A stretch of 63,977 bases of DNA, counting the filler, from Stramenopiles sp. TOSAG23-2 (lineage: Eukaryota), in NCBI GenBank assembly GCA_900128395.1. It is 3 parts of 3 records of this genome, joined end to end, with 100 filler letters (N's around TTAATTAATTAA, not from the genome) between each part and the next. Parts side by side here need not be neighbours in the genome. Positions count along the whole stretch, not along the records: positions 45,033 to 63,977 come from LT649595.1; 2 more parts are not named here. One strand, written 5' to 3'. The translations under genes and the position numbers were made by a program. How positions within the stretch are numbered: position 1 is the stretch's first letter; every line of letters begins with the position of its first letter. Positions 1,362 through 63,977 of this stretch are shown here, one piece after another. The notes beneath the pieces were generated by a model that saw only the letters and a program-made list of their open reading frames with translations, searched no databases and was not told the DNA's origin.

Positions 1362-3041
1362 ATGTCTTCCTTCGATAGCCCAATTGATAAAATCAATGAT
1401 TTAGCGAAATATATTGATGATAAAAATGATTCACCTCCACGTTCGCCTAAAGTGAAACCAAGTAGAGAGACTACGGAATCATTTGTTAAAAATACTAAAT
1501 CAAATATACATGGATGGAGTCCAACTAGAAATAAGGATAGTGGGAAAAATCGTAGACCAAGTGGGAATCAAATTATTGATAATTTTACCCTAACTCCAAT
1601 AGCAAGTGACGATACACCATCAGTTGGTGATAATAATAATAATAATACAAACCAAATACGTACTATGTCTGCTAACGTAGATGCAGATAAAAAAAAGAAT
1701 AAAGGAAAAAAAGGTGGTGACCCAGCTAAACAATATCCCAAGAAACCAAAACTTTCAAAAAAAGAGAGAAGGGCTTTACAGGAAGCGCAACGGGCGAGAA
1801 AAGCTGCGTTAAAAGAAGGTAGTGGTGGAAATAGTAAAAAAGGAAGTGCTAAAAATAGCAATAGTAATACCACTAAGAATAGCACAAATTCAAACAACAA
1901 CAACAATAATAATAATACAAGTAAACGAAAGAAAAAGAAAAACCATGGCGGTCATGCTATTTTTTCACATTTAGCACAATATCAAGCTACAAGTACTAAA
2001 TCAGAAAAGTTATTATTTTCAAAAAATGAAACAGTACACCCAGCAATAATACGAGTTGGTTTAAAATATGCACGATGGAAAATTTCAGGTTCAAATGCTC
2101 GATGTGTGGCAATGTTGCATGCAATAAAGGAAGTTATTATGGATTATACTACACCCCCGGACCAAGTATTACAAAGGCATCTGGATAAGCATTTAAAACC
2201 AATGATTAATTTCATTGTTCGTTGTCGACCTTTATCTAGCAACATGGGAAACGCAATTAATTTCGTCAAGGCTTCGATTGCAAAAATTGGGACAAACATT
2301 AATGACGAGGAGGCAAAAGAGACGCTTTGTGAACGGATTGATCGATTTATTTTAACGCGTATCACATCGGCATCTGATGCAATTGTTAAGTTTGCTATTG
2401 AGAAAGTTTTAGATGGGGATGTTATATTAACTTATGGAAGATCCTATGTTGTAGAAAAATTGCTAATACGTGCATTCAAAAGCGGCATTAATTTTCAAGT
2501 AGTAGTAGTTGACTCTAGGCCAAGAATGGAAGGCAGAGGATTGTTAAGTCGCTTAGCAAAAGTTGGTATTAAATGCACATATGTACTCTTAAGTGGTTTA
2601 TCGTATGTCATGAAAGAAGTGACGAAAATTATATTAGGCGCATCATCAATGATGGCAAACGGTGCCGCCGCTTCACGTGTTGGAACTGCTTGTGTGGCTA
2701 TGATGGCTAATAATTATCATAAACCTGTAATTTTTTGTTGCGAAACGTATAAATTTACTCCTAGGGTACAACTAGATTCGATAGTCGATAATGAAATGTT
2801 AGACCCAGATGAATTATCGAAAAATTTGTACATGGAACAGGTGTCAATGAATAGCTCGAACACAAACGCATATAATTCTTTGAAAAATTGGAAAGAGAAT
2901 AATTATTTGAATTTATTGAATATTGCATATGATTTTACCCCTTGTAAATTTATCGACATGATTATAACAGAAGTGGGTATGATGCCAGCCTCATCAGTTC
3001 CAGTTATCATTAGAGAATATGAAGCGGCAATAAACGATTAA
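1362..3041 (+). CDS. EIF2B4: Translation initiation factor eIF2B subunit delta
   Basis: Lys-rich N-terminus with KKERRALQEAQRA; HPAIIRVG, ISGSNARC, CRPLS, DVILTYG, VVVVDSRP, CCETYKF, ITEVGMMPASSVPVIIRE. ATG at 1362 chosen because the upstream extension is a CA/TA microsatellite. Confidence 0.95.
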   Translation: MSSFDSPIDKINDLAKYIDDKNDSPPRSPKVKPSRETTESFVKNTKSNIHGWSPTRNKDSGKNRRPSGNQIIDNFTLTPIASDDTPSVGDNNNNNTNQIRTMSANVDADKKKNKGKKGGDPAKQYPKKPKLSKKERRALQEAQRARKAALKEGSGGNSKKGSAKNSNSNTTKNSTNSNNNNNNNNTSKRKKKKNHGGHAIFSHLAQYQATSTKSEKLLFSKNETVHPAIIRVGLKYARWKISGSNARCVAMLHAIKEVIMDYTTPPDQVLQRHLDKHLKPMINFIVRCRPLSSNMGNAINFVKASIAKIGTNINDEEAKETLCERIDRFILTRITSASDAIVKFAIEKVLDGDVILTYGRSYVVEKLLIRAFKSGINFQVVVVDSRPRMEGRGLLSRLAKVGIKCTYVLLSGLSYVMKEVTKIILGASSMMANGAAASRVGTACVAMMANNYHKPVIFCCETYKFTPRVQLDSIVDNEMLDPDELSKNLYMEQVSMNSSNTNAYNSLKNWKENNYLNLLNIAYDFTPCKFIDMIITEVGMMPASSVPVIIREYEAAIND

Positions 3042-3360
3042 AAAAAAAGATTTTTTTTTCAATTTAAACGTAAATATTGACATTAACATATACGAAGTAT
3101 ATATTGGGAGTAAAAGAAATTTATACGATTCGTACGACTTCGTATAATATATACGAAGTATGAGGAAGAGACAATTATATATAATACGAGCTTCGTATTA
3201 AAATATATGTATTTTTATTAAAATATATTATGTTGAGAATTCGTGTATGATACTCGTAGATAAAATAGTAAAAAATAAGCTTGTTCGCGTATATAAAATA
3301 CGTTCGTGCGTTCGTAAAAAATACGTAAAAAATAAAGTATGAGTTCACATATTTTATATA

Positions 3361-6300
3361 TCATACAAAAAACTTCTCATCTTTGTTATGAACAGCTAAA
3401 CTCTTAACTTGCGTATATGGAATATGATATTCATTTCTATATGTTGTGTATTTCAGCTTAATTTCATTTTCATGTTTCATATCTTTTAATGCTCTTTTTT
3501 TAGCTGCAATTTTGTGGCGCTTTGCCTTCAAGCGTCTTTTCACGTTACTTCGCACCTGCGATCTTTGTTTTTTTGTCATATTTAAAAAATCCTTTTCATC
3601 GAATGGTTTTTCTTCTTCTTCACCAGTACCATCATCATCGTCCTTGCTATATCTCTTTTTGTACCACGCTTTTAATTTCTCTTTCCAAACACCAAATATT
3701 TTTGGAGTCAACTTTTCTTTTAAATTGAGAGCTTTTTCTTTCAATTTTATTGCAGGATTGATAAATATTTTTTCACCAACTTTCTTAATTACTCCACTTA
3801 TTTTTGGAAACTTTTTACCAAACGCGTTGAATGGCATTGTAATCCTATTTTTCCAAATTTCATAACGTGACAAATGCATAATTTTATCTTCGAGTTCACT
3901 TTCAGTTACTTTGGGCTTGAATTTGCGAAATACGTACATGGGAACTTCATGTTCATCTCTTCTTCGTCGATGCGCTAAACTTCGCTCTAATTTTATTTCT
4001 TTTTGTTGAAGAGTTTTCAACCTATTTTTGACTTGTCTAACTTCAGCATTATAGCCACCTTCTTCTAAAAAATCTTCACTTTCAATATGATTTTCCATTA
4101 ATTTTTCTAAACGTGCTTCTAATAGTATCGTTTCCCTTCTATACTTTTCACGTTTTTTCTTTAACATACGTTCCTTATGCTTTTTATGCAATAATTTTTT
4201 TATTTTATTTGCTGCTTCAAGCTCCTTCATTTTTTCTATATATCTTATATTTTCCATTGCACGTAATTGATCCTTTACTACCCTTATAATAGAATGTTGA
4301 ACCCAATCTTCCGCGGGCAAAGCTTTTGGTGCTTGTTCCATAATACGTATGATTAAATCTGTTTTTAGCTGTTTGCCCAATACAATGGAAAAATTTTGTC
4401 GAAAATATTTTAATGCCATGCGAGGTACGCAACGTGGATTTGGTGCAGTTCTACCACCACTTGCAGAAACTTTAACAACAGCAATTTCATTTCCTGCATC
4501 TTTTGCTCCAATGCCATATTCCTTTAATTTTCGATCGCCTGGCAAATAACCAATGCTTAACTCATCTGGAAAATCTAAGGTATTATCTAAAAAGAAAAAA
4601 CCTCCTTCTGTTGGTAGAAAAAAATAACCTAACGATTCAGGACCATATTCACCAGAATTTGCATTAAACAAACGTATCATTTCATCTATCGTCTCATCCT
4701 CAGTAACAACTAGACGGACCAGACTCCCACTTGGTATACTTTTAATCCATATTGTTATAGGATTATAACCTTCTGCCTGGCGATATTGTAAAATAGAGCC
4801 ACGATCTACTAAACGTGTATGCATCTTACTTAACCATGCCATCTTCTTCTTTGCTATTCTTGCCATTTCTTCATGATGTGAAAATCCACCTTTAGATTTA
4901 CCAGGATGCGACTCAGACATACTTTTCTTTCTCTTCCCTTGCGCTTTAACTTTATCAGGGGAATATTTATCAGTAGTGCTTATACGTTGCTTCTTTTTTC
5001 TACGAACACGACGACAAGATATATTTGCATGTTTTTCCCCATTTTCAAATTCGATTTCATAAAATAGCCCATCTTTGTGTTTGGATATAATTTTACCAAG
5101 ATAATGACCTTCCCAGCCTTTAACTCTTGCTTCTACATATGCACCAACACGAAAGAAACGCTTGTTATTATGTTTTTTATCATCCATATCATTACCTTCC
5201 ACATTATCTTCCTCATCTTTGCCACTTGCTTTACCATCCAATTTTTTCTTTTTCTTTTTCTTTTTTTTCTTCTTCTTTGTTTTCTTTTTCTCCTCGTCAT
5301 CTTTACTTTCAGCTTTTTTCTTCTTTACATCCTCAAGAGATACAATTCCTTGTGGCCGTACATAGACCGGTTCATACACATCTGGATCCTCTCGTTTTGG
5401 ATATGTATGTGGCATCTTTTCATTTAAATCAAAACACGCCGGGCATCCAGGATGTCCAGTAACTCCTGGTCTAGCTTTACAAATGGGACAACGACTACCA
5501 AATGGCTCTAATGTTTTCACATCAAACTCTTCATATAGATCTTCCTCCTCATCAGATTCACCTTCATCCCTTTGATCGCGAATGTAACTAAAAAATGTAG
5601 GATTTTCTACCATAGTGTTGCAACGAGTACGTTTAACACTGAACTTTCTAAATAAACCATAAAATGATATATGTTTATTATTCGTTTCCAACTCATCAAA
5701 ATTTTCACGAATTTCCCTATTTAAATTATCTGCTTCCTCTTTTTCTTTCGCTAAACGTTTTTCTTCCTTTTCACGCTGCTTTTTTTCATATTCAGCTAAC
5801 ATTTGTGCACCTGTTTGACGTTTTTTCCTCTTCTTTTTCCTACGACTTCCATTGCCACGGCTACTAGCTCTAATACTGCCACCTCTACTACTCGTAGCAC
5901 GATCATCATCCACAATCAGAAAATCAGATGCTGAATGTACACCTTCTATTGTTTTTGGTGGTGGTGGAAATGGTCCATTCTCATTTTCCAATTGATAATC
6001 TTCATCGTAATAATCTATTGTCGATGGCAGTGACCCGGGATGTAACTTTTCAACATCAACACGATTTTTTTCATTCACAACACTGATTTTTGGCTTTGGC
6101 TTAAAAGTAATTTTATCTACATCATAGCCCCAAAATATTGGAGACACTTTATTTACATCATGCTTGACTCTTTGTTGACGATATCCAACAAAAGATGGAT
6201 GTCGGTTTATTGATTGATAAGACGTTACTTCAAACAAAACATCACGGCGTTGTCGATTTTCAACAATTGCTGCTTGTGTTTCTAATTGGTTTTGTATCCA

Positions 6301-48734: not shown

Positions 48735-51700
48735 TTATGAATATTGTACTTTAATCAATAAACACTCTTCATTTTGATCTGTTTCATCATTTACAAACAC
48801 AAACATCTCTCTTAATCCTGGTTTATCCAATGGCGTGAAAAACAATCTAATATATGCTTTACCAAGTTTTCGCACACTTAATTTAGGCTCTTTGCATCGC
48901 ATTAAATTTGGTTCGTTCGTGCGCAACGTAAAATTCCTTTGGCGATCCCATTGGTTTTTATATGCTATCTTTTTATGTGCACTACGACCAACTGGTATAC
49001 TAACATCATATGTTTTTGTAACAACAGGGGGAGCAGCAGTTGTTGAAACTAACCAAGCAGCAATTAGCTCATGGGAATCAACATCTACCATATGAACAAG
49101 CACTCGACGATTTCCCATACGTAAAGGACGACTGATCATTCCTATTCTATTGTATGCACCTGGCACAAGTTGGAATGCTGTTTTCAATGTAAATGCAGTT
49201 TCACTTGGATGAGAAGTAAAGCATTTCACACGCCTGGAATATTGATCACCTTTAACCATCAATTCGCTTGGTGTTCCTTGACCAACCAATCCATGGACAT
49301 CAACGCGTAACATTGATTGAACGGTTACGTGCCAAATTTCATCCACACGAGCATGATATTGATCTGCATATACAATGATGAAAAATTGACCAAGGGATGG
49401 AAAGGATAAACAACGGTATTTAAAGAAGATTTCTTGAGGCTTGTTTGCATCGGTTTGGTCCAAAAATTCTAAAACAACGTCATTGCTAGGGCAATGTACA
49501 AACTTTGCAGGCATCGCTTGTCCCCGTCTTGCATTAATAACACCAGTAGCGCCATCTTTTGATCTATTTATCGTATTATTGAGACCTGGCATGAGGGCAG
49601 GTGCAGCATTATATGGATTAAAATTACGTGGATGAATAGCAATACTGCGCTTTAAATATTCATTTTCAGCTTGATTGAATCGGAAAGTACGATCAACAAT
49701 AAATGGTCTTGGACGAACATGCACTTGCAATACCATGACGGTATGACCAAAATTTTTACTGAAAAAACGAACAGGTATCGTCCTTCGCATAATTGGTACT
49801 CCATCCCCACCATTACCATGTGCCCCAGAAAAATCTTCCTTTGATTCCGAATCATCGTTCTTAGAACCATATGAATCATCTGATTTCTCGCCAGCTTTTC
49901 CACCAGCCGTAGATGATTTAGAATATTTCGCTTTTCCTTTCCCTCGTCCAGACATTACACTTCCAGAATTAAAGCTTAGGAATACAAATGGAATAAAGAC
50001 AGACTCACCAGCTTCTAATGTCAAATGCAAATCTTCATCTATCATTTCATCTTCAACAGGTTTGTCCCCAAATTTGCCAGCAGCCGGTTGCAATACCCTG
50101 CGGTAATGCTCCTGTGCAAGCCTATCGCGAACAACCCTCAATTCAGACTGTGCTGGAAGCTCAATTACAAATACTGCTTCACATGAATATGGATTACGTA
50201 ATTCATACTCAAAATATTTCGCACGTGCGAACGATGGATAGATTGTTAACTCGTTGCTAATACTTGATTTCAACAAGCGACCAACTAAAGCTTTCTTCCG
50301 AGTGTCACGGAAGCGTTTAACTAAATCCAGTTGTTCCTTATGGATAGCAAATTTCCCTTTGTTTGCATGCTCCTTTCCAATAATATCACTAGCGCGTGAG
50401 GACCGTTTCGAATTGCTGCCATCGCGTTTGCGCCAGTTATCTAATCTAGCCATTTGCCTTTGAATTGTCGATGCGCGTATATCATCCTCGTCATCGTAAT
50501 CGCGGTCATCCATTAACGATAATCCCATATCCATTAAAACATATTTAAATTCCGTGCGGGTTACGTTTCCAGTACCACGATCGAAGGCTTGAAACATCGA
50601 GTCAACATCTTTTCCACTTCGCGTACAATTACCATATGCTTTACTACATTTTTCTTTTACTGCTTCCATTCTAACTGGAACTGAACCTCCTCTACCAGCT
50701 TTCTTATATCTACTACTATTTGGTGCACTATTAGCAAAATCAACAAATTCATCAATACTAACATACCCATCGCCGTTCGTATCGAATCGTTTTACTAACG
50801 CATCTAATTCCCAATGGGCTCCTTTGAAGCCTAAATCAGCTAATACAGCCTCGAAATCTCTATCATCCACTTTTCCGCGATTATCCCTATCGAACTCGGA
50901 AAATGCATCGCGCAAACTCAAACCTTTGTCCTTCGCTTTTTTTAAAATTTTTCTAAGTCTATTTTCCATTTTATCTATTTTGGATTCTGCATCTTCCGTA
51001 TCAATATCGCCCATGACAAAATCCACAAATTCATTAATTGTCAAACGACCATCATGATTTTCATCCAGATGCAACAGTACAGCTTCCGCCTCTTCCTCGT
51101 TTATTTTGATTCCCAAATCCTCCAATGCATCCATCCATTCCGCCCGGGTAATTCTTCCATCATTGTTTTTATCAAAATGTGCAAAAATGTCTTTAATTTT
51201 CATGCCTTTCTCCTCCGCCTTTACTATAATTTTTTTCAAACGCTTTTCAACTTTTTGGACAATATTGCTTTTCAATGAAGATGACGGGGACATAGCAAAA
51301 TCAATAAATGACTTTGCATCAATAGTATTTTCACCATGTCTATGTGCAAATCGTGCCATGAAGTGCTTCATGTCTTTATCCGTTGCATGAAAACCTAATT
51401 TTTTTAACGTGTGTTTAAATTCTTTCTCTGTAATTTTACCATCGCCATCTTCATCAAACTCCTCAAATACATCTTCGATGTCTAGTCCTTTATCTTCCGC
51501 ACCTCTTAATATTTTTCGTAAACGTGACTCCAAACGATCTACAGCAGGTTCGAAACGTTTCTTATTTCCACCTTTTCCTGTCCCACGACCACTTATGCCA
51601 GTGCCATTACAGATATCTTTAACAAAGACTGACCAATCGATCTTCCCAGTCGCGCTTTTCCCTGCACTGCAAAATCCATACAAACTATCTAACTCATCCA

Positions 51701-54700
51701 TAGAGATAGAAAATGGATCAGTCAATGCACGCACACCACTATCGAGACTAGCTGATTTCCATCCACCTTTTTTCTTGGCAGCCATTGATGTGGTTTTACC
51801 GTTGTTTCTACCTTGCGATTCTGTTCGTGAAAATTCTTTTTGGCGTGATGACAACAATGATTTAAGCTCCGGGTTTGTTGCTGGCAACGGAACGGCGCGA
51901 GATCGATGCCTTGCAGACACACGATTTCCACTGATGCTATTGTTGAGGTTGTCAAATCCTGTTCTTGCACCAACACGCCAATCACGGTCACCTTCAGTTT
52001 TTCCAAAAATTTCCTTTCCACGCTCTACAAATCCACCTGCCGCAGCCGAGCTTGCTTTTAATTCTGAATATGGTCCTTTTCCCTCTAAACCATAATTAGA
52101 CATGAGCAATTGAACACGGCCAGTCACACGTCCAGCTGGCAATGCACGTGCTTGCACAGTGGGAATACCTTCACCAATAATTTCATCTGCACTCGATGAT
52201 ATAATATCATACTCTAATGCTGATTTAATAACTTTTTCGCCTTGACGTAGTAAACCTGCTAATTCAACAGCAATGGTACCAACTTTAAGCAATGAATCGC
52301 TATCCCATACTTCAATATAGAGAGTTCGTTCTTTTAAGTATTCTGGGAACAGTCTAGTTTCACCCGGTACTAGGCTATTGTCCACGATGTAACTGTATGC
52401 TAAACTTGGAACAACGCGGCCATCTGTATCTTCTCGTACGAGAATCATCGGTTCAGACATTGATCCAGCCTTTCGTTCACTTAAAAGTGCTCCTCTATTT
52501 TTTTGCGATAAGACCATATGTTCAGTTCTAGTTGGGTAGTTATTGAAAAATTGGAAGGTGAAATGAACGGCACGTGGTTGTGGAATATTTAATCCTTGGA
52601 TCGTGCGGAAGGCGGCAAATTGAAATGTAACTTCATTTGCCAGCAAGGTATCGGAAAATTCTACATCTAAATCGACTTGGCGTCTCGATGGAAGCGGTAC
52701 ACGCTTGACGCCGCCAATTGAAGTAGAATCGCCTAAAACATCAGTATAACCATGCCTTGCTAAATATGTTTTGGACGCACGTGTTAATTGAGTTGCTAAT
52801 GGTGTCGTTCCACCAATGACAGCAGTCACGCCAGGATTGTATGATCCTAATTGTGCATTGATAGTTGCAACTCCACCCATACCAGGTTTCTTTAAAGGTT
52901 GTTTTAAAGATTGTGCCAATAATGAACGCATTAGAATATCGTTTGATCCTCTTGGTAAGCCATGAACAACATTGTCTCCTCCAAGTACTGCTGATTTTGA
53001 TTGTAAATTTCTATCTTCCACCTCTTCGTACCGATCATTTTCTTTATCTGAAAACTTTGATTTCTTTCCTTTCTTCTTTTTGAAACTATCCTCATCATCA
53101 TCATCAGTATCGTCTCCGCTTGATATTTCAATATCCGAATCATCTTTTGCCTTCTTCTTCTTTTTCTTGTCTTTCTTTTTGTTTTTCGCTTCTAGTTCTT
53201 CCATTTTCTTTCTTCGAGCTTTTTCAGCTTTATCCTCTGATAGCTCTCTTTCATAATTCTCAAGCAATTTTTTCTTCTCTTTTTCTTTTTTTCTAGTTTT
53301 CGCTTGTACATGATCTGGTTCATCAACTTCAATTTCACACGAAACGGATGGCGTAATTTGCTCTACGTCATAATCGTATATATCTGGAGAAGATGACGAT
53401 GCAGTAACTCCACCGGTAAATCCATTTGGACTTATCATAGATCCTCGTACACATGGTACAACTAGGATTTCTGCTTTTTGGTTTTTACCATAAGTAGTAG
53501 TGATTCCATGTAAATATTTTTTACCATCAAATGGAACAAATATAGCTTCAGCGACAACAGCATCTGGACCACCATTTACATTGTAAACAATTTGAAAAAC
53601 AATGGCTACATTGGAATCTTTGCAATAATGTGGGATGGTAATATCTTCAGCCCGATAAATTTCCTTTGATCTAGAGGATTTATTGGACAATTCAACCTTT
53701 AAAAATCCATTTTTCCAATCACTTCGCCCACCACGTCTACCACTTTGTGGTGCAAAGACACGATGGCCGTTATGCAATGAAACTCTTAAAGTTCGCTCGA
53801 CGCTGTTACCGCCTTCAAATCCTTTTTCCAGTGCTCTTTTGATTCCATTGTCTATAAGTTTTGGAAGTTTAACAACGACGCCTTTGATTTCCAATTCCAT
53901 TCGTGGCGCTAATTTAATATTAGCTGCTTTGGATGGGTTCTTCTTATTATATAAAAAAGGTCCTTCTGTACTTTGATATTCCACCATTTCTAAACCACCG
54001 ACAGGATTATTAGTACCGATCAAATCATGAGGTTTAAATAGATGCGCAGCTCTTTCCAATGATTGCATTTTACTTAATGAATATGCAAATTTCCCAGATC
54101 TTCTTTGCCATTTAGTGCCATTCCTTTGTTTGTTGTTGATGTCACTAGCACTCATAGTTAACAATGCTCTTGGACTACCATCAAAAAGCGACAACTGGTT
54201 GGAAAAATCTTCCTCATCATCTTCCTCGTCTTCTATATCAACAATATTTTTATCTTTAAATATTCTAACCGTTGTCCATCCCATGGCGTACGATCGTTTA
54301 ACGCCTGTTTTATTATTTTCGTGTATGAGCTGAATCTCAGCAACTCCATAACAGTTATCATCGTATATTGGAGATGCAAAATAAATGAAGTGGTCTAGCC
54401 TTACATCATAACGAACATCTTTGTTATTTTCGAACCAAACAACTGGACTTTCATGTGTTCTACCGAAAAATGTTTGCGACTTTGCATTATACAAACTAAG
54501 ATTAAAACGTACACCTAACCTATCATTAACAGAGTCTCTAGCTTTCAATATACCTGCTGGAATTTGCACACCCAATATTTCATGAACATGCAACGTGAAA
54601 TATCGAATTTCTTTTGCAAATAAAGTATCATCTTGACTAACTGGTATGATACTTAAATGAGAATTTGCAACCCATCTTTTTAATGCCAACGCACCACGGC

Positions 54701-54731
54701 TTCCACCGGGTACTGCCATATGTTCCGCCAT
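48735..54731 (-). CDS. NPHP4: Nephrocystin-4 (ciliary transition zone) with EF-hand array
   Basis: TFFGRT, GWTTVRIF, EVTFQFAAF, HFTFQFF, LYIEVWDSDSLLKVG, YFEYELRNPY, VDRTFRF, HKKIAYKNQW, NEECLLI; several DxDGDG loops. Confidence 0.92.
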   Translation of the reverse strand: MAEHMAVPGGSRGALALKRWVANSHLSIIPVSQDDTLFAKEIRYFTLHVHEILGVQIPAGILKARDSVNDRLGVRFNLSLYNAKSQTFFGRTHESPVVWFENNKDVRYDVRLDHFIYFASPIYDDNCYGVAEIQLIHENNKTGVKRSYAMGWTTVRIFKDKNIVDIEDEEDDEEDFSNQLSLFDGSPRALLTMSASDINNKQRNGTKWQRRSGKFAYSLSKMQSLERAAHLFKPHDLIGTNNPVGGLEMVEYQSTEGPFLYNKKNPSKAANIKLAPRMELEIKGVVVKLPKLIDNGIKRALEKGFEGGNSVERTLRVSLHNGHRVFAPQSGRRGGRSDWKNGFLKVELSNKSSRSKEIYRAEDITIPHYCKDSNVAIVFQIVYNVNGGPDAVVAEAIFVPFDGKKYLHGITTTYGKNQKAEILVVPCVRGSMISPNGFTGGVTASSSSPDIYDYDVEQITPSVSCEIEVDEPDHVQAKTRKKEKEKKKLLENYERELSEDKAEKARRKKMEELEAKNKKKDKKKKKKAKDDSDIEISSGDDTDDDDEDSFKKKKGKKSKFSDKENDRYEEVEDRNLQSKSAVLGGDNVVHGLPRGSNDILMRSLLAQSLKQPLKKPGMGGVATINAQLGSYNPGVTAVIGGTTPLATQLTRASKTYLARHGYTDVLGDSTSIGGVKRVPLPSRRQVDLDVEFSDTLLANEVTFQFAAFRTIQGLNIPQPRAVHFTFQFFNNYPTRTEHMVLSQKNRGALLSERKAGSMSEPMILVREDTDGRVVPSLAYSYIVDNSLVPGETRLFPEYLKERTLYIEVWDSDSLLKVGTIAVELAGLLRQGEKVIKSALEYDIISSSADEIIGEGIPTVQARALPAGRVTGRVQLLMSNYGLEGKGPYSELKASSAAAGGFVERGKEIFGKTEGDRDWRVGARTGFDNLNNSISGNRVSARHRSRAVPLPATNPELKSLLSSRQKEFSRTESQGRNNGKTTSMAAKKKGGWKSASLDSGVRALTDPFSISMDELDSLYGFCSAGKSATGKIDWSVFVKDICNGTGISGRGTGKGGNKKRFEPAVDRLESRLRKILRGAEDKGLDIEDVFEEFDEDGDGKITEKEFKHTLKKLGFHATDKDMKHFMARFAHRHGENTIDAKSFIDFAMSPSSSLKSNIVQKVEKRLKKIIVKAEEKGMKIKDIFAHFDKNNDGRITRAEWMDALEDLGIKINEEEAEAVLLHLDENHDGRLTINEFVDFVMGDIDTEDAESKIDKMENRLRKILKKAKDKGLSLRDAFSEFDRDNRGKVDDRDFEAVLADLGFKGAHWELDALVKRFDTNGDGYVSIDEFVDFANSAPNSSRYKKAGRGGSVPVRMEAVKEKCSKAYGNCTRSGKDVDSMFQAFDRGTGNVTRTEFKYVLMDMGLSLMDDRDYDDEDDIRASTIQRQMARLDNWRKRDGSNSKRSSRASDIIGKEHANKGKFAIHKEQLDLVKRFRDTRKKALVGRLLKSSISNELTIYPSFARAKYFEYELRNPYSCEAVFVIELPAQSELRVVRDRLAQEHYRRVLQPAAGKFGDKPVEDEMIDEDLHLTLEAGESVFIPFVFLSFNSGSVMSGRGKGKAKYSKSSTAGGKAGEKSDDSYGSKNDDSESKEDFSGAHGNGGDGVPIMRRTIPVRFFSKNFGHTVMVLQVHVRPRPFIVDRTFRFNQAENEYLKRSIAIHPRNFNPYNAAPALMPGLNNTINRSKDGATGVINARRGQAMPAKFVHCPSNDVVLEFLDQTDANKPQEIFFKYRCLSFPSLGQFFIIVYADQYHARVDEIWHVTVQSMLRVDVHGLVGQGTPSELMVKGDQYSRRVKCFTSHPSETAFTLKTAFQLVPGAYNRIGMISRPLRMGNRRVLVHMVDVDSHELIAAWLVSTTAAPPVVTKTYDVSIPVGRSAHKKIAYKNQWDRQRNFTLRTNEPNLMRCKEPKLSVRKLGKAYIRLFFTPLDKPGLREMFVFVNDETDQNEECLLIKVQYS

Positions 54732-59945: not shown

Positions 59946-60183
59946 ATTCTTTTTATTGTTATTGCTCTCTTATGTTATATTCAATTGATAGATTGTTTTA
60001 CTTAACGTATGATTTTGTTTTTGTCATATATATCTATCGGATCATATTGTAAAAAAACAAAATTGTTTTTAGTTTGATGCAACTAATTCTAATAATTGTT
60101 GTTTCTGTGATGCTTCGCAACTTCTTCGACATAAAATTTGTATCTTCCCATACGCAGTGCTACCCTCTAAACCGTGAGAAAAC

Positions 60184-60345
60184 TGTGCACTTAACACTAT
60201 TCACTATGGGGAAAATATTCACCATTTTTTCTATATTTTCGGATATTTGCTATTTTTTACAAATATATGAAAAATAAAATTGGCATTTTAGAAAACGATA
60301 TATACATATTTCCCATAGTGAATAGTGTTATTTGTTAAGTGCACA
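60184..60345. repeat. Imperfect inverted repeat (MITE-like or hairpin)
   Basis: tgtgcacttaacactattcactatggggaaaatat versus atatttcccatagtgaatagtgttatttgttaagtgcaca. Confidence 0.75.
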
Positions 60346-60626
60346 TTTTTTGTCAAAATTCCAAAAAAATATAGTACGAGATATGATGATATATATACAT
60401 ATATTTTATGATGATCATAAATTAAAATGAATAATAATTATATTATACACATCAATATGAAAAGATATCAATATATCAATTATTCATACATTTCATCAAT
60501 TTATTGATTAAGAAGTACACATATACAAATATATCTAAACATATATACCACACAAAAATAAAAAATAAAAAAAATAATCAAATTACCAACCAATAATAAT
60601 AATAATTTAACAACTTTTTTTTAAAA

Positions 60627-61709: not shown

Positions 61710-62447
61710 AAAATATATATTTTGTAGGTATGTATAAACATTATTTATGTTTTACAGGCGACACATACTAAGTGTACACACAAAGGATCTGAAGAGTGCA
61801 AGCAATAAATAAAAGAAACCGTGAAAAAATAAAAGTATACAGAGAGAGAGAGAGAGAGTGCCTGTGGAGAATGTAAAATACTATAGTAAAAGTAGATACT
61901 TCGTAATATTTTATAATGTTTGTGTCATCTAATTACTAAAGATGTTTGTCATGAGTGTTTTTAACAAATAGAGGGGAGGATATATGTGAACAAATTACGA
62001 TTCTCGTGGTTCGTGGGACTCGATAAATGCTGTGTGAGAGATTGAATTATTAATTAATGTGAGAGGGAGAGCAGTGTTTAATGTTCACCAATCCAATTAA
62101 ATGTGGTTAAAAAGGTTAAAAAATATTCAAAAAGAGTTTTTACTACGATGTGTATTTATCTAACTTAATATTTGTATATGTAATTTTTTTTAGTATCTTC
62201 CATTATCTTCCATTATTATGCGAGTTCACCGGAGAGTATTCGCTATAATACAGTATATTACATCGTATATACACATAGAAAACACTGTTCTAAATATATT
62301 AATATTATCAAGTTCAATTTATAAATAATATAACATCATAAGATACAAGAATCAAAGTACTACTTCTCGTAAAAGCTTTATCTACAAACAATATATATAT
62401 ATATATATTATTATATATTTTTTTTAGCTTTCCACTAAGGAAATTAT

Positions 62448-63977
62448 ATGAACATGGCTTCAATTATAAATAATAATAATAATAACACGGATAATGAGAG
62501 CAAAGGTGAAGATATTACGAATAACCATGCAGACGTTCTTGTTTTGGATCCTATAATTGTGCAAGAGATGAGTGAAATGAATATTGTTAATGATGATCCG
62601 TCATTCATTGATATATTGCCAAGTGGTGGTGCTGGGCGGAATATTGTTTATACCATCCTTAGTATGTTAGATATGAAATCATTAAGTTCTTTGATCTATT
62701 CATCCTTTATTCAATTATTTTGTAAAAATCGAAACGATGATACATTGTATCAACTGTGTAAAGAGATACAACATCAATTTAAAATACAATTGGCGAATGA
62801 ATTAAAGATTAAATACGAAGAAGAATTTCCACATGGTACGCCAATAGTATGCGCATGCGAAAAAGGACGTTTTGAGGAAATGAAATTATTGATTACAGGG
62901 CGTAATGATGTGAATGGTAGTAATGGTAATAATAATAATATGACATTGAAAGAATACGTGAATCAAGAAGGTAAAGGTAGTTATGGTTATGCATGGACAC
63001 CTTTAATGGCAGCTTTTTCTGGTGGACATACAGAAATTATTGATTATCTCTTCGGCATTCTTTCAGATGGTGTAACAATGAATGCAACTATATTAACTGA
63101 GTTGTATAAGAAAACATTTCCAAACGGTACGCCAATAGTATGCGCGTGTGAAAAAGGACGTTTTGAGGATGTAAAATTATTGATTACAGGCTATAATGAT
63201 GTGAATGGTAGTAATGGTAATAATAATAATATGACATTGAAAGAATACGTGAATCAAGAAGGTAAAGGTAGTTATGGTGAATTGGAAATAATAATAATAT
63301 GACATTGAAAGAATACGTGAATCAAGTCGGTAAAAATAGTGGTGGTTATGATCGTACACCTTTAATGGCAGCTTTTTCTGGTCCTTTTTCTGGTGGACAT
63401 ACAGAAATTATTGATTATCTCTTCGGCATTCTTTCAGATGGTGTAACAATGAATGCAACTATATTAACTGAGTTGTATAAGAAAACATTTCCATACGGTA
63501 CGCCAATAGTATGCGCATGTGAAAAAGGACGTTTTGAGGATGTAAAATTATTGATTACAGGCTATAATGATGTGAATGGTAGTAATGGTAATAATAAAAT
63601 AGGAGGTAAAGGAGAAGGAAGAGGTGGTAAGAAAAAGAAAAAGAAAAAGAAAAAGAAAAAGAAAAAGAAAAAGAAAGAAGGGGATGATGAAAATAATATG
63701 ACATTGAAAGAATACGTGAGTCAAGTCGGTGAAAGTAGTGGTGGTTGGTCATGGACACCTTTATGTGCAGCAACAGACCAACGCATTATTGATTATTTAT
63801 TCTCCATCTTGTTAGATGGAATAACACGTAATACAAATACATTGACTGATTTGTATAAGAAAACATTTCCAGACGGTACGCCAATAGTATGCGCATGTGA
63901 AAAAGGACGTTTTGAGGATGTAAAATTATTGATTACAGGCTATAATGATGTGAATGGTAGTAATGGTAATAATAATA
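62448..63977 (+). CDS. Modular ankyrin-repeat protein; frame break near 63280; runs off the window end
   Basis: Four copies of GTPIVCACEKGRFE; TPLMAA...GHTEIIDYL. A second frame is open from ATG 63299 to the end of the window. Confidence 0.8.

What the first reader, a model, noticed from the sequence alone, without database searches (positions are those of the whole stretch)
62820..63977. Ankyrin gene built from near-identical DNA modules with focused hypervariable positions
Seen: a ~291-nt module (FPxGTPIVCACEKGRFEDVKLLITGYNDVNGSNG..MTLKEYVNQxG-loop-TPL) recurs four times with nearly identical DNA, yet some positions differ in every copy. The codon before GTP is CAT/AAC/TAC/GAC (H/N/Y/D at 62832, 63123, 63494, 63872). 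The loop before TPL reads EGKGSYGYAW, VGKNSGGYDR and VGESSGGWSW. Established: the ankyrin beta-hairpin loop just before TPL forms the ligand-binding surface. Inference: a homogenised scaffold with diversified binding residues suggests a natural variable-recognition repertoire, for example for prey, virus or self recognition, shuffled by recombination or gene conversion.
Basis: partly seen in the sequence, partly recalled or inferred. Interest (0 to 1): 0.7.

Follow-up and report, generated by a model that had tools for sequence, protein, structure and literature searches.

The report
F-box ankyrin gene from hypervariable family
An uncultured marine predatory flagellate carries more than a hundred near-identical ankyrin binding modules whose target-touching residues change under strong selection, and this gene joins a string of them to a ubiquitin-ligase adaptor, which looks like a natural library of recognition proteins whose targets are still unknown.

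Summary
The four modules and variable codons are real, but spacings are 291/371/378 nt, a 68-nt partial duplication breaks the frame, and the contig ends in unit 4. The module belongs to a genome-wide family in a MAST-4 stramenopile (123 copies of a 24-mer). One 4-ankyrin cassette is fused to F-box-like, kinase, TIR, lipase, ART, Mrr and SPRY partners. Codon models give omega 4-18 at 20 sites on the ankyrin hairpins and inner helix; neighbouring synonymous sites are nearly invariant; recombination-only simulations fall far short; 83 cassettes from other assemblies vary at the same sites. Best reading: an SCF substrate receptor from a recombining, diversifying binder repertoire, probably against intracellular parasites; targets are not shown. 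Intact multi-unit versions exist in other assemblies, but this four-unit layout and its frameshift may be misassembled. It resembles fungal NLR repeats and nematode F-box genes, without a NOD domain. The scan noted this family before on other contigs of this genome.

The parts
62448..63302 (+). ORF 1 (284 aa): low-complexity N-terminus, F-box-like motif, unit 1, first half of unit 2; stops after the frameshift
   Evidence: Pfam Ank_2 E 5.6e-12
62595..62717 (+). Divergent F-box-like motif (residues that touch Skp1 in the model)
   Evidence: complex model 0.75 vs best control 0.14; profile's top PDB hits are beta-TrCP F-boxes, E 0.043-0.16; no Pfam F-box hit for this copy
62826..63116 (+). Unit 1 (291 nt): ANK1 with Asn-rich loop, hairpin EGKGSYGYAW (62967-62996), TPL helix, linker type A
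   Evidence: linker A is 98% identical to a unit on C1878 whose ORF has another N-terminus
62832..62834 (+). Variable codon before GTP, unit 1 (His); equivalents at 63123 (Asn), 63494 (Tyr), 63872 (Asp)
   Evidence: posterior 1.0 for omega>1 across 75 family blocks
63117..63298 (+). Unit 2a: ANK1 plus a truncated hairpin identical to the start of loop 1, then the frame-breaking junction of a 68-nt partial duplication (about 63279-63298)
   Evidence: junction not bridged by any listed contig
63299..63487 (+). Unit 2b in the second frame: hairpin VGKNSGGYDR (63326-63355), TPL helix, linker A with 12 extra nt
   Evidence: identical contigs in DNA run X2 (63316-63524) and RNA run X15 (63306-63539)
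63488..63865 (+). Unit 3: ANK1, in-frame 96-nt Gly/Lys-rich insertion (63596-63691), hairpin VGESSGGWSW (63725-63754), linker type B
   Evidence: linker B type in 8 other G000 contigs at 83-89% and in intact gene L142
63866..63977 (+). Unit 4, cut by the end of contig C1389; the ANK2-ANK4 C-terminal cassette of complete relatives is missing from the window

Best explanation
The gene is a member of a large MAST-4 family built on one intron-free ankyrin cassette (capping helix, ANK1 with an Asn-rich loop, ANK2-4). Shown by sequence analysis: the scaffold is kept nearly uniform across loci while about 20 codons on the hairpins and inner helices, the ankyrin binding face, are under strong diversifying selection; units are added in tandem and exchanged between genes with unrelated N-termini. 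Supported by a model, not shown: this subfamily's N-terminus is an F-box, so the protein is an SCF ubiquitin-ligase substrate receptor that marks what its ankyrin face binds for degradation; other members wire the same binder to kinase, TIR, lipase, ART or nuclease domains. Inferred: the targets are fast-evolving foreign proteins in the cytosol (viruses, virophages, prey-derived or parasitic bacteria), and the repertoire is an inherited innate defence system evolving by duplication, gene conversion or unequal crossing-over, and birth and death. The window copy is a tandem-unit variant that is either broken or misassembled.
For: Family size: 107 DNA matches with 40 of 194 candidates scored; 123 hits of a 24-mer, 0 for the reversed control. 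M2a over M1a: ANK1 2dL 30, omega 4.1 (75 sequences); ANK2 191/6.6, ANK3 237/8.6, ANK4 255/17.9 (47-48 sequences). 9 of 12 testable DARPin-type positions selected against 9 of 93 others, Fisher p 2.7e-6. Fourfold diversity 0.025 beside selected codons, 0.070 far from them; 0.53-0.57 at first and second positions of selected codons. 14 null simulations, 8 of them with recombination: 2dL at most 11.7 against 198 observed. 83 cassettes from other assemblies vary at the same columns, rho 0.90; 131 of 131 signatures distinct. Linkage decays with distance, permutation 1 of 500. F-box part under purifying selection, pN 0.075, pS 0.288, n=7. Skp1 model 0.75, best of 3 controls 0.14; mark reached by 51 of 78 solved and 2 of 108 mismatched pairs; runs agree in at least 85% of contacts, partner pLDDT at least 63. 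Partner domains. Intact in-frame multi-unit genes in other assemblies. Present in an RNA library.
Against: No ligand, infection response or phenotype was tested. Pfam finds no F-box in this copy; 2 of 18 F-box-like members score only E 0.017-0.056 and belong to another class. Skp1-F-box is a solved textbook pair, so the pass may come from memory. Only 29 of 141 fetched family ORFs or fragments carry an F-box-like start. The assembly is fragmented and may mix alleles of several cells with paralogues; chimeric joins would also make linkage decay. The window copy is frameshifted and lacks its C-terminal cap. 41 of 43 stored homologues of this subfamily have a single ANK1 unit, so four units is atypical. 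No cassette relative was found in viral contigs.
Confidence: 0.6

Rival explanations
1. Same diversified SCF/effector binders, but the targets are not pathogens: self/non-self or mating recognition, prey-protein handling, or conflict with selfish genetic elements.
For: The selection signal says nothing about target identity. Fungal repeats of this type act in allorecognition (PMC13449251, abstract). A new F-box gene blocks gene flow in Caenorhabditis hybrids (PMC11573670, search listing).
Against: The cassette has no signal peptide or membrane segment in the 293-aa model, which argues against prey-surface sensing. TIR, ART, lipase, Mrr and kinase partners are typical of conflict systems (established knowledge). 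More than 100 dispersed copies exceed what allorecognition loci usually need (inference).
Confidence: 0.22
2. A dedicated mechanism (targeted mutagenesis as in diversity-generating retroelements, or programmed somatic recombination) makes the variation in each cell or lineage.
For: Variable codons are near saturation while adjacent fourfold sites are the least variable (0.025); third positions are often fixed; every cassette signature is unique.
Against: Adenines are invariant right beside variable codons (GCA in 52 of 52 between ANK3 sites; AAA in 75 of 75 in ANK1) and all four bases vary, so no adenine-specific pattern. No fixed ends, terminal repeats or common 3' element at the cassette borders. 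The same loop and codon occur unchanged in runs X2 and X15, and the F-box-to-His junction in X1 and X2.
Confidence: 0.06
3. Neutral expansion or a selfish mobile domain; the variable sites are simply unconstrained surface residues.
For: The cassette is attached to many unrelated sequences, and many copies look broken.
Against: Omega is far above 1, not near 1; selected sites are rich in Tyr, Asp, Asn, Arg and Trp; homology fades at coding borders with no transposon hallmarks; fusions are in frame at the capping helix.
Confidence: 0.05
4. The family-level signal is an assembly artefact of collapsed ordinary paralogues. (The narrower claim, that only this four-unit layout or its frameshift is misassembled, is compatible with the best explanation; I put that at about 0.5.)
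For: Array at a contig end; 65 nt of unit 2a identical to unit 1; no listed contig across 63279-63290; a contig in X3 goes on after 63280 with other letters; all contigs of X1 and X15 at 62977 carry another base; similar frame-breaking duplications in many family loci; the linker-A pattern is absent from metagenome contigs.
Against: An assembler cannot invent the codon variants; the same sites vary in 83 cassettes from other assemblies; intact two- and three-unit genes in L142, L144, L150, L151, L152; 62601-62930 and 63306-63539 match other runs with 0 differences. 664 pieces were not shown, so a missing bridge proves nothing.
Confidence: 0.03

Closest known systems
Fungal NLRs with ANK/TPR/WD repeats of high internal conservation (PMC4986451, passages; PMC13449251, abstract and section 12)
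   Same: Near-identical repeats, repeat-number variation, positive selection on the ANK hairpin and inner helix, repeat exchange between loci, varied effector domains (lipase-like, TIR).
   Different: No NACHT or NB-ARC in any of 48 partner regions scanned; only 1 of 12 NOD loci holds a diverged copy of the core. The conserved unit is a whole 4-repeat cassette shared by over 100 dispersed loci, mostly as single copies, and is often joined to an F-box.
Expanded F-box families of Caenorhabditis (PMC8120010, passages) and plants (search listing only)
   Same: Purifying selection on the F-box, positive selection on the substrate-binding domain, proposed role against pathogen proteins.
   Different: The substrate domain is an ankyrin cassette homogenised at DNA level and shared with non-F-box genes; the F-box is below Pfam detection.
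Legionella AnkB (PMC5506055, abstract; ankyrin content recalled)
   Same: F-box plus ankyrin repeats; a few relatives here also end in a CaaX motif (2 of 70 closed G000 ORFs, 5 of 121 homologues, 0 of 112 background ORFs).
   Different: AnkB is a single secreted bacterial effector; here it is a host-encoded multigene family; no homology beyond generic domains was tested.
Ectocarpus ROCO-LRR and NB-ARC-TPR genes (PMC3341825, abstract); Tetrahymena 90-bp-exon LRR genes (PMC6564038, passages)
   Same: Stramenopile or protist repeat repertoires reshuffled by recombination; fusion to kinases; proposed recognition role.
   Different: Those shuffle single-repeat exons; these units are intron-free ankyrins. 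The Tetrahymena genes are reported as mostly under purifying selection.
DARPin libraries (PMC8229355, passages; position numbers recalled)
   Same: Fixed scaffold with variable residues on the concave face; DARPins lead the Foldseek matches.
   Different: Synthetic; the natural cassette also varies position 10 and has longer hairpins and an Asn-rich insertion.

Membership tests
Ankyrin-repeat proteins | Pfam ANK match and helix-turn-helix-hairpin fold | tested here: met
   Ank_2 above cut-off in both window ORFs; model of paralogue P0001, pLDDT 89-98 over most of the ANK part, matches DARPins
F-box proteins (SCF receptors) | Pfam F-box match | tested here: not met
   none for the window copy; weak hits E 0.017-0.056 in 2 of 18 members of a related class
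F-box proteins (SCF receptors) | Profile or fold similarity to solved F-boxes | tested here: inconclusive
   top four PDB sequence hits are beta-TrCP F-boxes, E 0.043-0.16; fold search of a pLDDT-62 model gave only generic helical matches, best Z 6.4
F-box proteins (SCF receptors) | Binds the C-terminal helices of Skp1 (predicted) | tested here: met
   0.75 vs best control 0.14; 51 of 78 solved and 2 of 108 mismatched pairs reach the mark; Skp1 residues 106-158 in the interface; may reflect memory of solved complexes
F-box proteins (SCF receptors) | Physical Skp1/Cullin binding and substrate ubiquitination | not testable with these tools
   needs bench work
F-box proteins (SCF receptors) | Purifying selection on F-box, diversifying on substrate domain | tested here: met
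Fungal-type HiC NLRs | Central NACHT or NB-ARC domain | tested here: not met
   absent from the window ORFs and 48 partner regions; 1 of 12 NOD loci has a diverged core
Fungal-type HiC NLRs | Repeats over 85% identical across at least 100 aa with positively selected binding-face sites | tested here: met
   214 nt at 99% between units 2 and 3, tandem near-identical units in C695 and C634, selection tests
Fungal-type HiC NLRs | Repeat-number polymorphism between individuals at one locus | tested here: inconclusive
   unit number varies among subfamily members (1, 2, up to 4) but no syntenic allele of this locus was found
Diversity-generating retroelements | Adenine-specific variation against a template repeat | tested here: not met
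   invariant adenines between variable codons, all bases vary
Diversity-generating retroelements | Linked reverse transcriptase and template repeat | not tested
   no genome-wide search was run
Transposon-borne cassette | Fixed ends, terminal repeats, target duplication or poly-A tail | tested here: not met
   flank listings show homology fading at the capping helix and stop codon; 3' flanks are A-rich but not a shared tail (judged by eye)

The most novel reading that the evidence does not exclude
MAST-4 flagellates have a NOD-free intracellular immune repertoire in which one DNA-homogenised ankyrin cassette acts as a swappable variable region: recombination shuffles binding blocks and tandem units among more than a hundred loci and plugs them into different outputs (SCF degradation, TIR, kinase, ART, lipase, nuclease), with synonymous sites beside the variable codons kept uniform so that exchange stays possible. 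It would be a natural DARPin library used for defence by a unicellular predator, so diverse that each assembly yields new variants.
Probability: 0.3. Interest if true: 0.85.

Novelty: new variant of a known kind. Interest (0 to 1): 0.62.

Why it matters
MAST-4 are among the most abundant bacterivores of the surface ocean (PMC7970053, passages), and how such uncultured protists defend themselves against viruses and intracellular bacteria is open. A family with about 20 defined, strongly selected binding residues, a predicted link to SCF, and many variants readable from metagenomes gives a direct handle: variants can be expressed and screened for targets, and allele frequencies followed against virus dynamics. 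It extends the repeat-shuffling receptor logic of fungal NLRs to a NOD-free design in a stramenopile, and offers a natural counterpart to DARPin libraries.

Tried and rejected
Treating the array as one intact gene: rejected by the frameshift. Local hotspot or DGR-type mutagenesis: rejected. Recombination as the source of the selection signal: 14 simulations completed of 18 planned, none near the observed value (a first run was killed). Transposon ends: none seen. Viral origin: 10 pattern matches in viral contigs, none confirmed. Allele of this locus: linker pattern gave 0 metagenome hits; 19 related loci, none with the DnaJ neighbour. Fold search of the F-box piece: no F-box chain listed, model too weak to judge. 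Atlas: query not held; homologue search returned generic ankyrin clusters. Cluster look-up gave no organism names. A first strict regular expression kept only 27 cassettes and was replaced by a profile search. Parts of 63004-63135 had no cover in X1, X2 or X15, probably because identical sequence was laid on the second copy. Literature: MAST-4 with ankyrin gave 0 papers with a third term and 1 paper on another flagellate without it (listing only); main texts of PMC5778133, PMC8237690 and PMC13724720 have no ankyrin or F-box mention; their supplements were not read and may list these genes. Search of earlier findings by sequence returned nothing.

Full report
Setting. The window joins several contigs of a 32.8-Mb, AT-rich eukaryotic assembly (G000, 9,146 contigs); the finding is the last 1.2 kb of contig C1389. 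The genome's 18S gene matches the published MAST-4 probe with 0 mismatches and 10 other group probes with 3 or more (probes from tables in PMC4234645 and PMC9303649), so the organism is most likely a MAST-4 marine stramenopile. The stretch occurs in marine DNA and RNA runs of 12 studies. Neighbours are ordinary intron-poor genes: DnaJ, SET, fumarylacetoacetase, an EF-hand protein.

Observation. But spacings are 291, 371 and 378 nt, a 68-nt partial duplication shifts the frame so that ORF 62448-63302 stops and the rest lies in another frame, unit 3 has a 96-nt Gly/Lys insertion, and unit 4 is cut by the contig end. Each unit is two ankyrin repeats plus a linker helix.

The family. The module gives 107 DNA matches with only 40 of 194 candidates scored, 155 protein matches with 150 of 322 scored, and a 24-mer from it occurs 123 times against 0 for the control. 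I fetched 285 kb from 98 contigs and found 141 family ORFs or fragments, with 111 ANK1 blocks on 58 contigs; 18 of 73 ORFs with such a block have two to ten. Complete members end in a 4-ankyrin cassette; median pairwise DNA identity of the core was 84% in 27 copies, scaffold-only distances 5-10%. Of 48 non-cassette regions scanned (chosen from 66, near-duplicates left out), six carry protein kinases above the cut-off, two TIR, and one each Mrr nuclease, lipase 3, SPRY, ART, LRR, choline kinase, EF-hand and EDR1-like; none has NACHT or NB-ARC. One of 12 NOD-domain loci has a diverged copy of the core. Homology begins in the capping helix and fades at the stop codon, with no fixed ends. The window's linker A is 98% identical to a unit in C1878, whose ORF starts differently.

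Selection. From 139 domains I kept 67 unique ones with at least 90% coverage, and 48 of these with at least 70% identity to the consensus. My own M1a/M2a implementation strongly favours a positively selected class: ANK2 2dL 191, omega 6.6; ANK3 237, 8.6; ANK4 255, 17.9, with six indel-prone columns dropped; ANK1 30, 4.1, where the codon before GTP has posterior 1.0 (75 of 102 unique blocks). Of 105 core codons 18 are selected; 9 of 12 testable DARPin-type positions (2, 3, 5, 13, 14; numbering recalled) against 9 of 93 others, p 2.7e-6, and all three position-10 sites. Dyrka et al. place selected sites of fungal ANK repeats on the same hairpin and inner helix (PMC4986451, passages). Fourfold sites next to selected codons are less variable (0.025) than distant ones (0.070), and invariant adenines sit between variable codons, which rules out a regional hotspot and adenine-specific mutagenesis. 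Fourteen null simulations, 8 with free recombination between 3 or 6 segments, reached at most 2dL 11.7 against 198; this is a small control. A database search found 414 relatives among 862 candidates; 83 of 132 domains in the 120 listed passed the same identity filter, none within 95% of a fetched G000 cassette, and their column entropy tracks that of G000 (rho 0.90); all 131 variable-site signatures differ. Some may come from unfetched G000 loci. Linkage falls with distance (r2 0.17 to 0.065, 1 of 500 permutations) and ANK2 and ANK3 scaffold distances are unrelated (rho 0.05), as expected from gene conversion, but chimeric assembly would do the same.

The N-terminus. It belongs to one of four F-box-like classes found in 29 of 141 ORFs; 21 matches for this class in the genome. 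Pfam does not call it. A profile of 18 members ranks beta-TrCP F-boxes first in the PDB, weakly (E 0.043-0.16); a fold search was inconclusive. Folded with the genome's Skp1, the window's 80-residue piece scored 0.75 against a best control of 0.14; that mark was reached by 51 of 78 solved and 2 of 108 mismatched microbial pairs (71 of 105 and 2 of 126 for eukaryotes); runs agreed in at least 85% of contacts, partner pLDDT at least 63; the contacts are on Skp1's C-terminal helices. Because Skp1-F-box complexes are solved, the pass shows likeness, not binding. The F-box part is under purifying selection (pN 0.075, pS 0.288, n=7), the pattern reported for Caenorhabditis F-box genes (PMC8120010, passages), and its synonymous divergence is well above that of the ankyrin scaffold, which fits homogenisation of the cassette.

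Is this array real? Laying four runs on 62300-63600 (contigs only, 664 pieces not shown): 62651-62930 (X1) and 62601-62881 (X2) match exactly, joining the F-box to the His codon; 63316-63524 (X2) and 63306-63539 (RNA run X15) match exactly, joining loop VGKNSGGYDR to the Tyr codon; X15 also covers 62568-62910 with two differences. X1 and X2 may be the source of the assembly and are not independent. Against: no listed contig bridges the frameshift junction, a contig in X3 continues there with other letters, and all X1 and X15 contigs at 62977 differ from loop 1. Many family loci in G000 break at similar duplications. In other assemblies, 2 of 11 loci with this F-box have an extra in-frame unit (L142 with linker B, L144 with another linker) and three loci with other starts have two or three units; 41 of 43 stored homologues have one. 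So tandem units are a real feature of the family, but this four-unit layout may be a merge of two alleles or loci (about even odds) or a pseudogene.

Mechanism. Shown: uniform scaffold, focused diversifying selection, modular fusion, presence in an RNA library. Modelled: Skp1 binding. Inferred: SCF-mediated degradation of bound targets, exchange by gene conversion or unequal crossing-over, and foreign cytosolic proteins as the driver (confidence 0.6). Rivals are non-pathogen targets (0.22), a dedicated mutator (0.06), neutral spread (0.05) and artefact (0.03).

Novelty. It works like fungal NLR repeat domains and nematode F-box expansions but is not an NLR. Searches for MAST-4 with ankyrin found no description, nor did the main texts of three MAST genomics papers (supplements not read); subscription papers are not in the library. 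Verdict: a new variant of a known kind, interest 0.62.

Noticed in passing
window 60169-60350: About 185-nt element with long imperfect terminal inverted repeats; about 40 copies at 83-98% among 40 of 164 candidates scored: MITE-like, not specific to ankyrin loci.
   Followed up: partly
L124 (G000 C688, NB-ARC ORF): An NB-ARC protein of about 2,100 aa carries a diverged copy of the family's 3-ankyrin core (E 2e-14) and 56 nt at 80% to a unit linker: a possible link between the family and NLR-like genes.
   Followed up: partly
L082 (C1561), L064 (C5585), L140, L142, L152: A minority of members end in a CaaX prenylation motif (2 of 70 closed G000 ORFs, 3 of 15 metagenome ORFs, 0 of 112 background), giving an F-box-ankyrin-CaaX layout like Legionella AnkB.
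   Followed up: partly
L011 and L012 (C5388, C2437): Nearly identical N-terminus, first repeats and 3' flank, but different residues at the variable sites of ANK3 and ANK4; the L012 version resembles C8565: alleles, conversion or chimera.
   Followed up: partly
window 63596-63691: In-frame Gly/Lys-rich insertion in the Asn-rich loop of unit 3, not found in other fetched loci. A contig of X1 joins an inverted copy of such a repeat to 63372, a weak hint that it lies nearby in that sample.
   Followed up: partly
L030 (C695) 2091-5852: A 1,254-aa open frame with an F-box-like start and ten tandem units, some exact repeats.
   Followed up: partly
L120 (C1478): A second, divergent Skp1-like gene.
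   Followed up: no
window 48735-54731 (-): 1,998-aa intronless ORF that looks like nephrocystin-4 (recalled) with an inserted EF-hand block.
   Followed up: no
L008, L038, L071, L097: Cassette fused to Mrr nuclease, kinase plus ART, kinase plus TIR, and TIR.
   Followed up: partly
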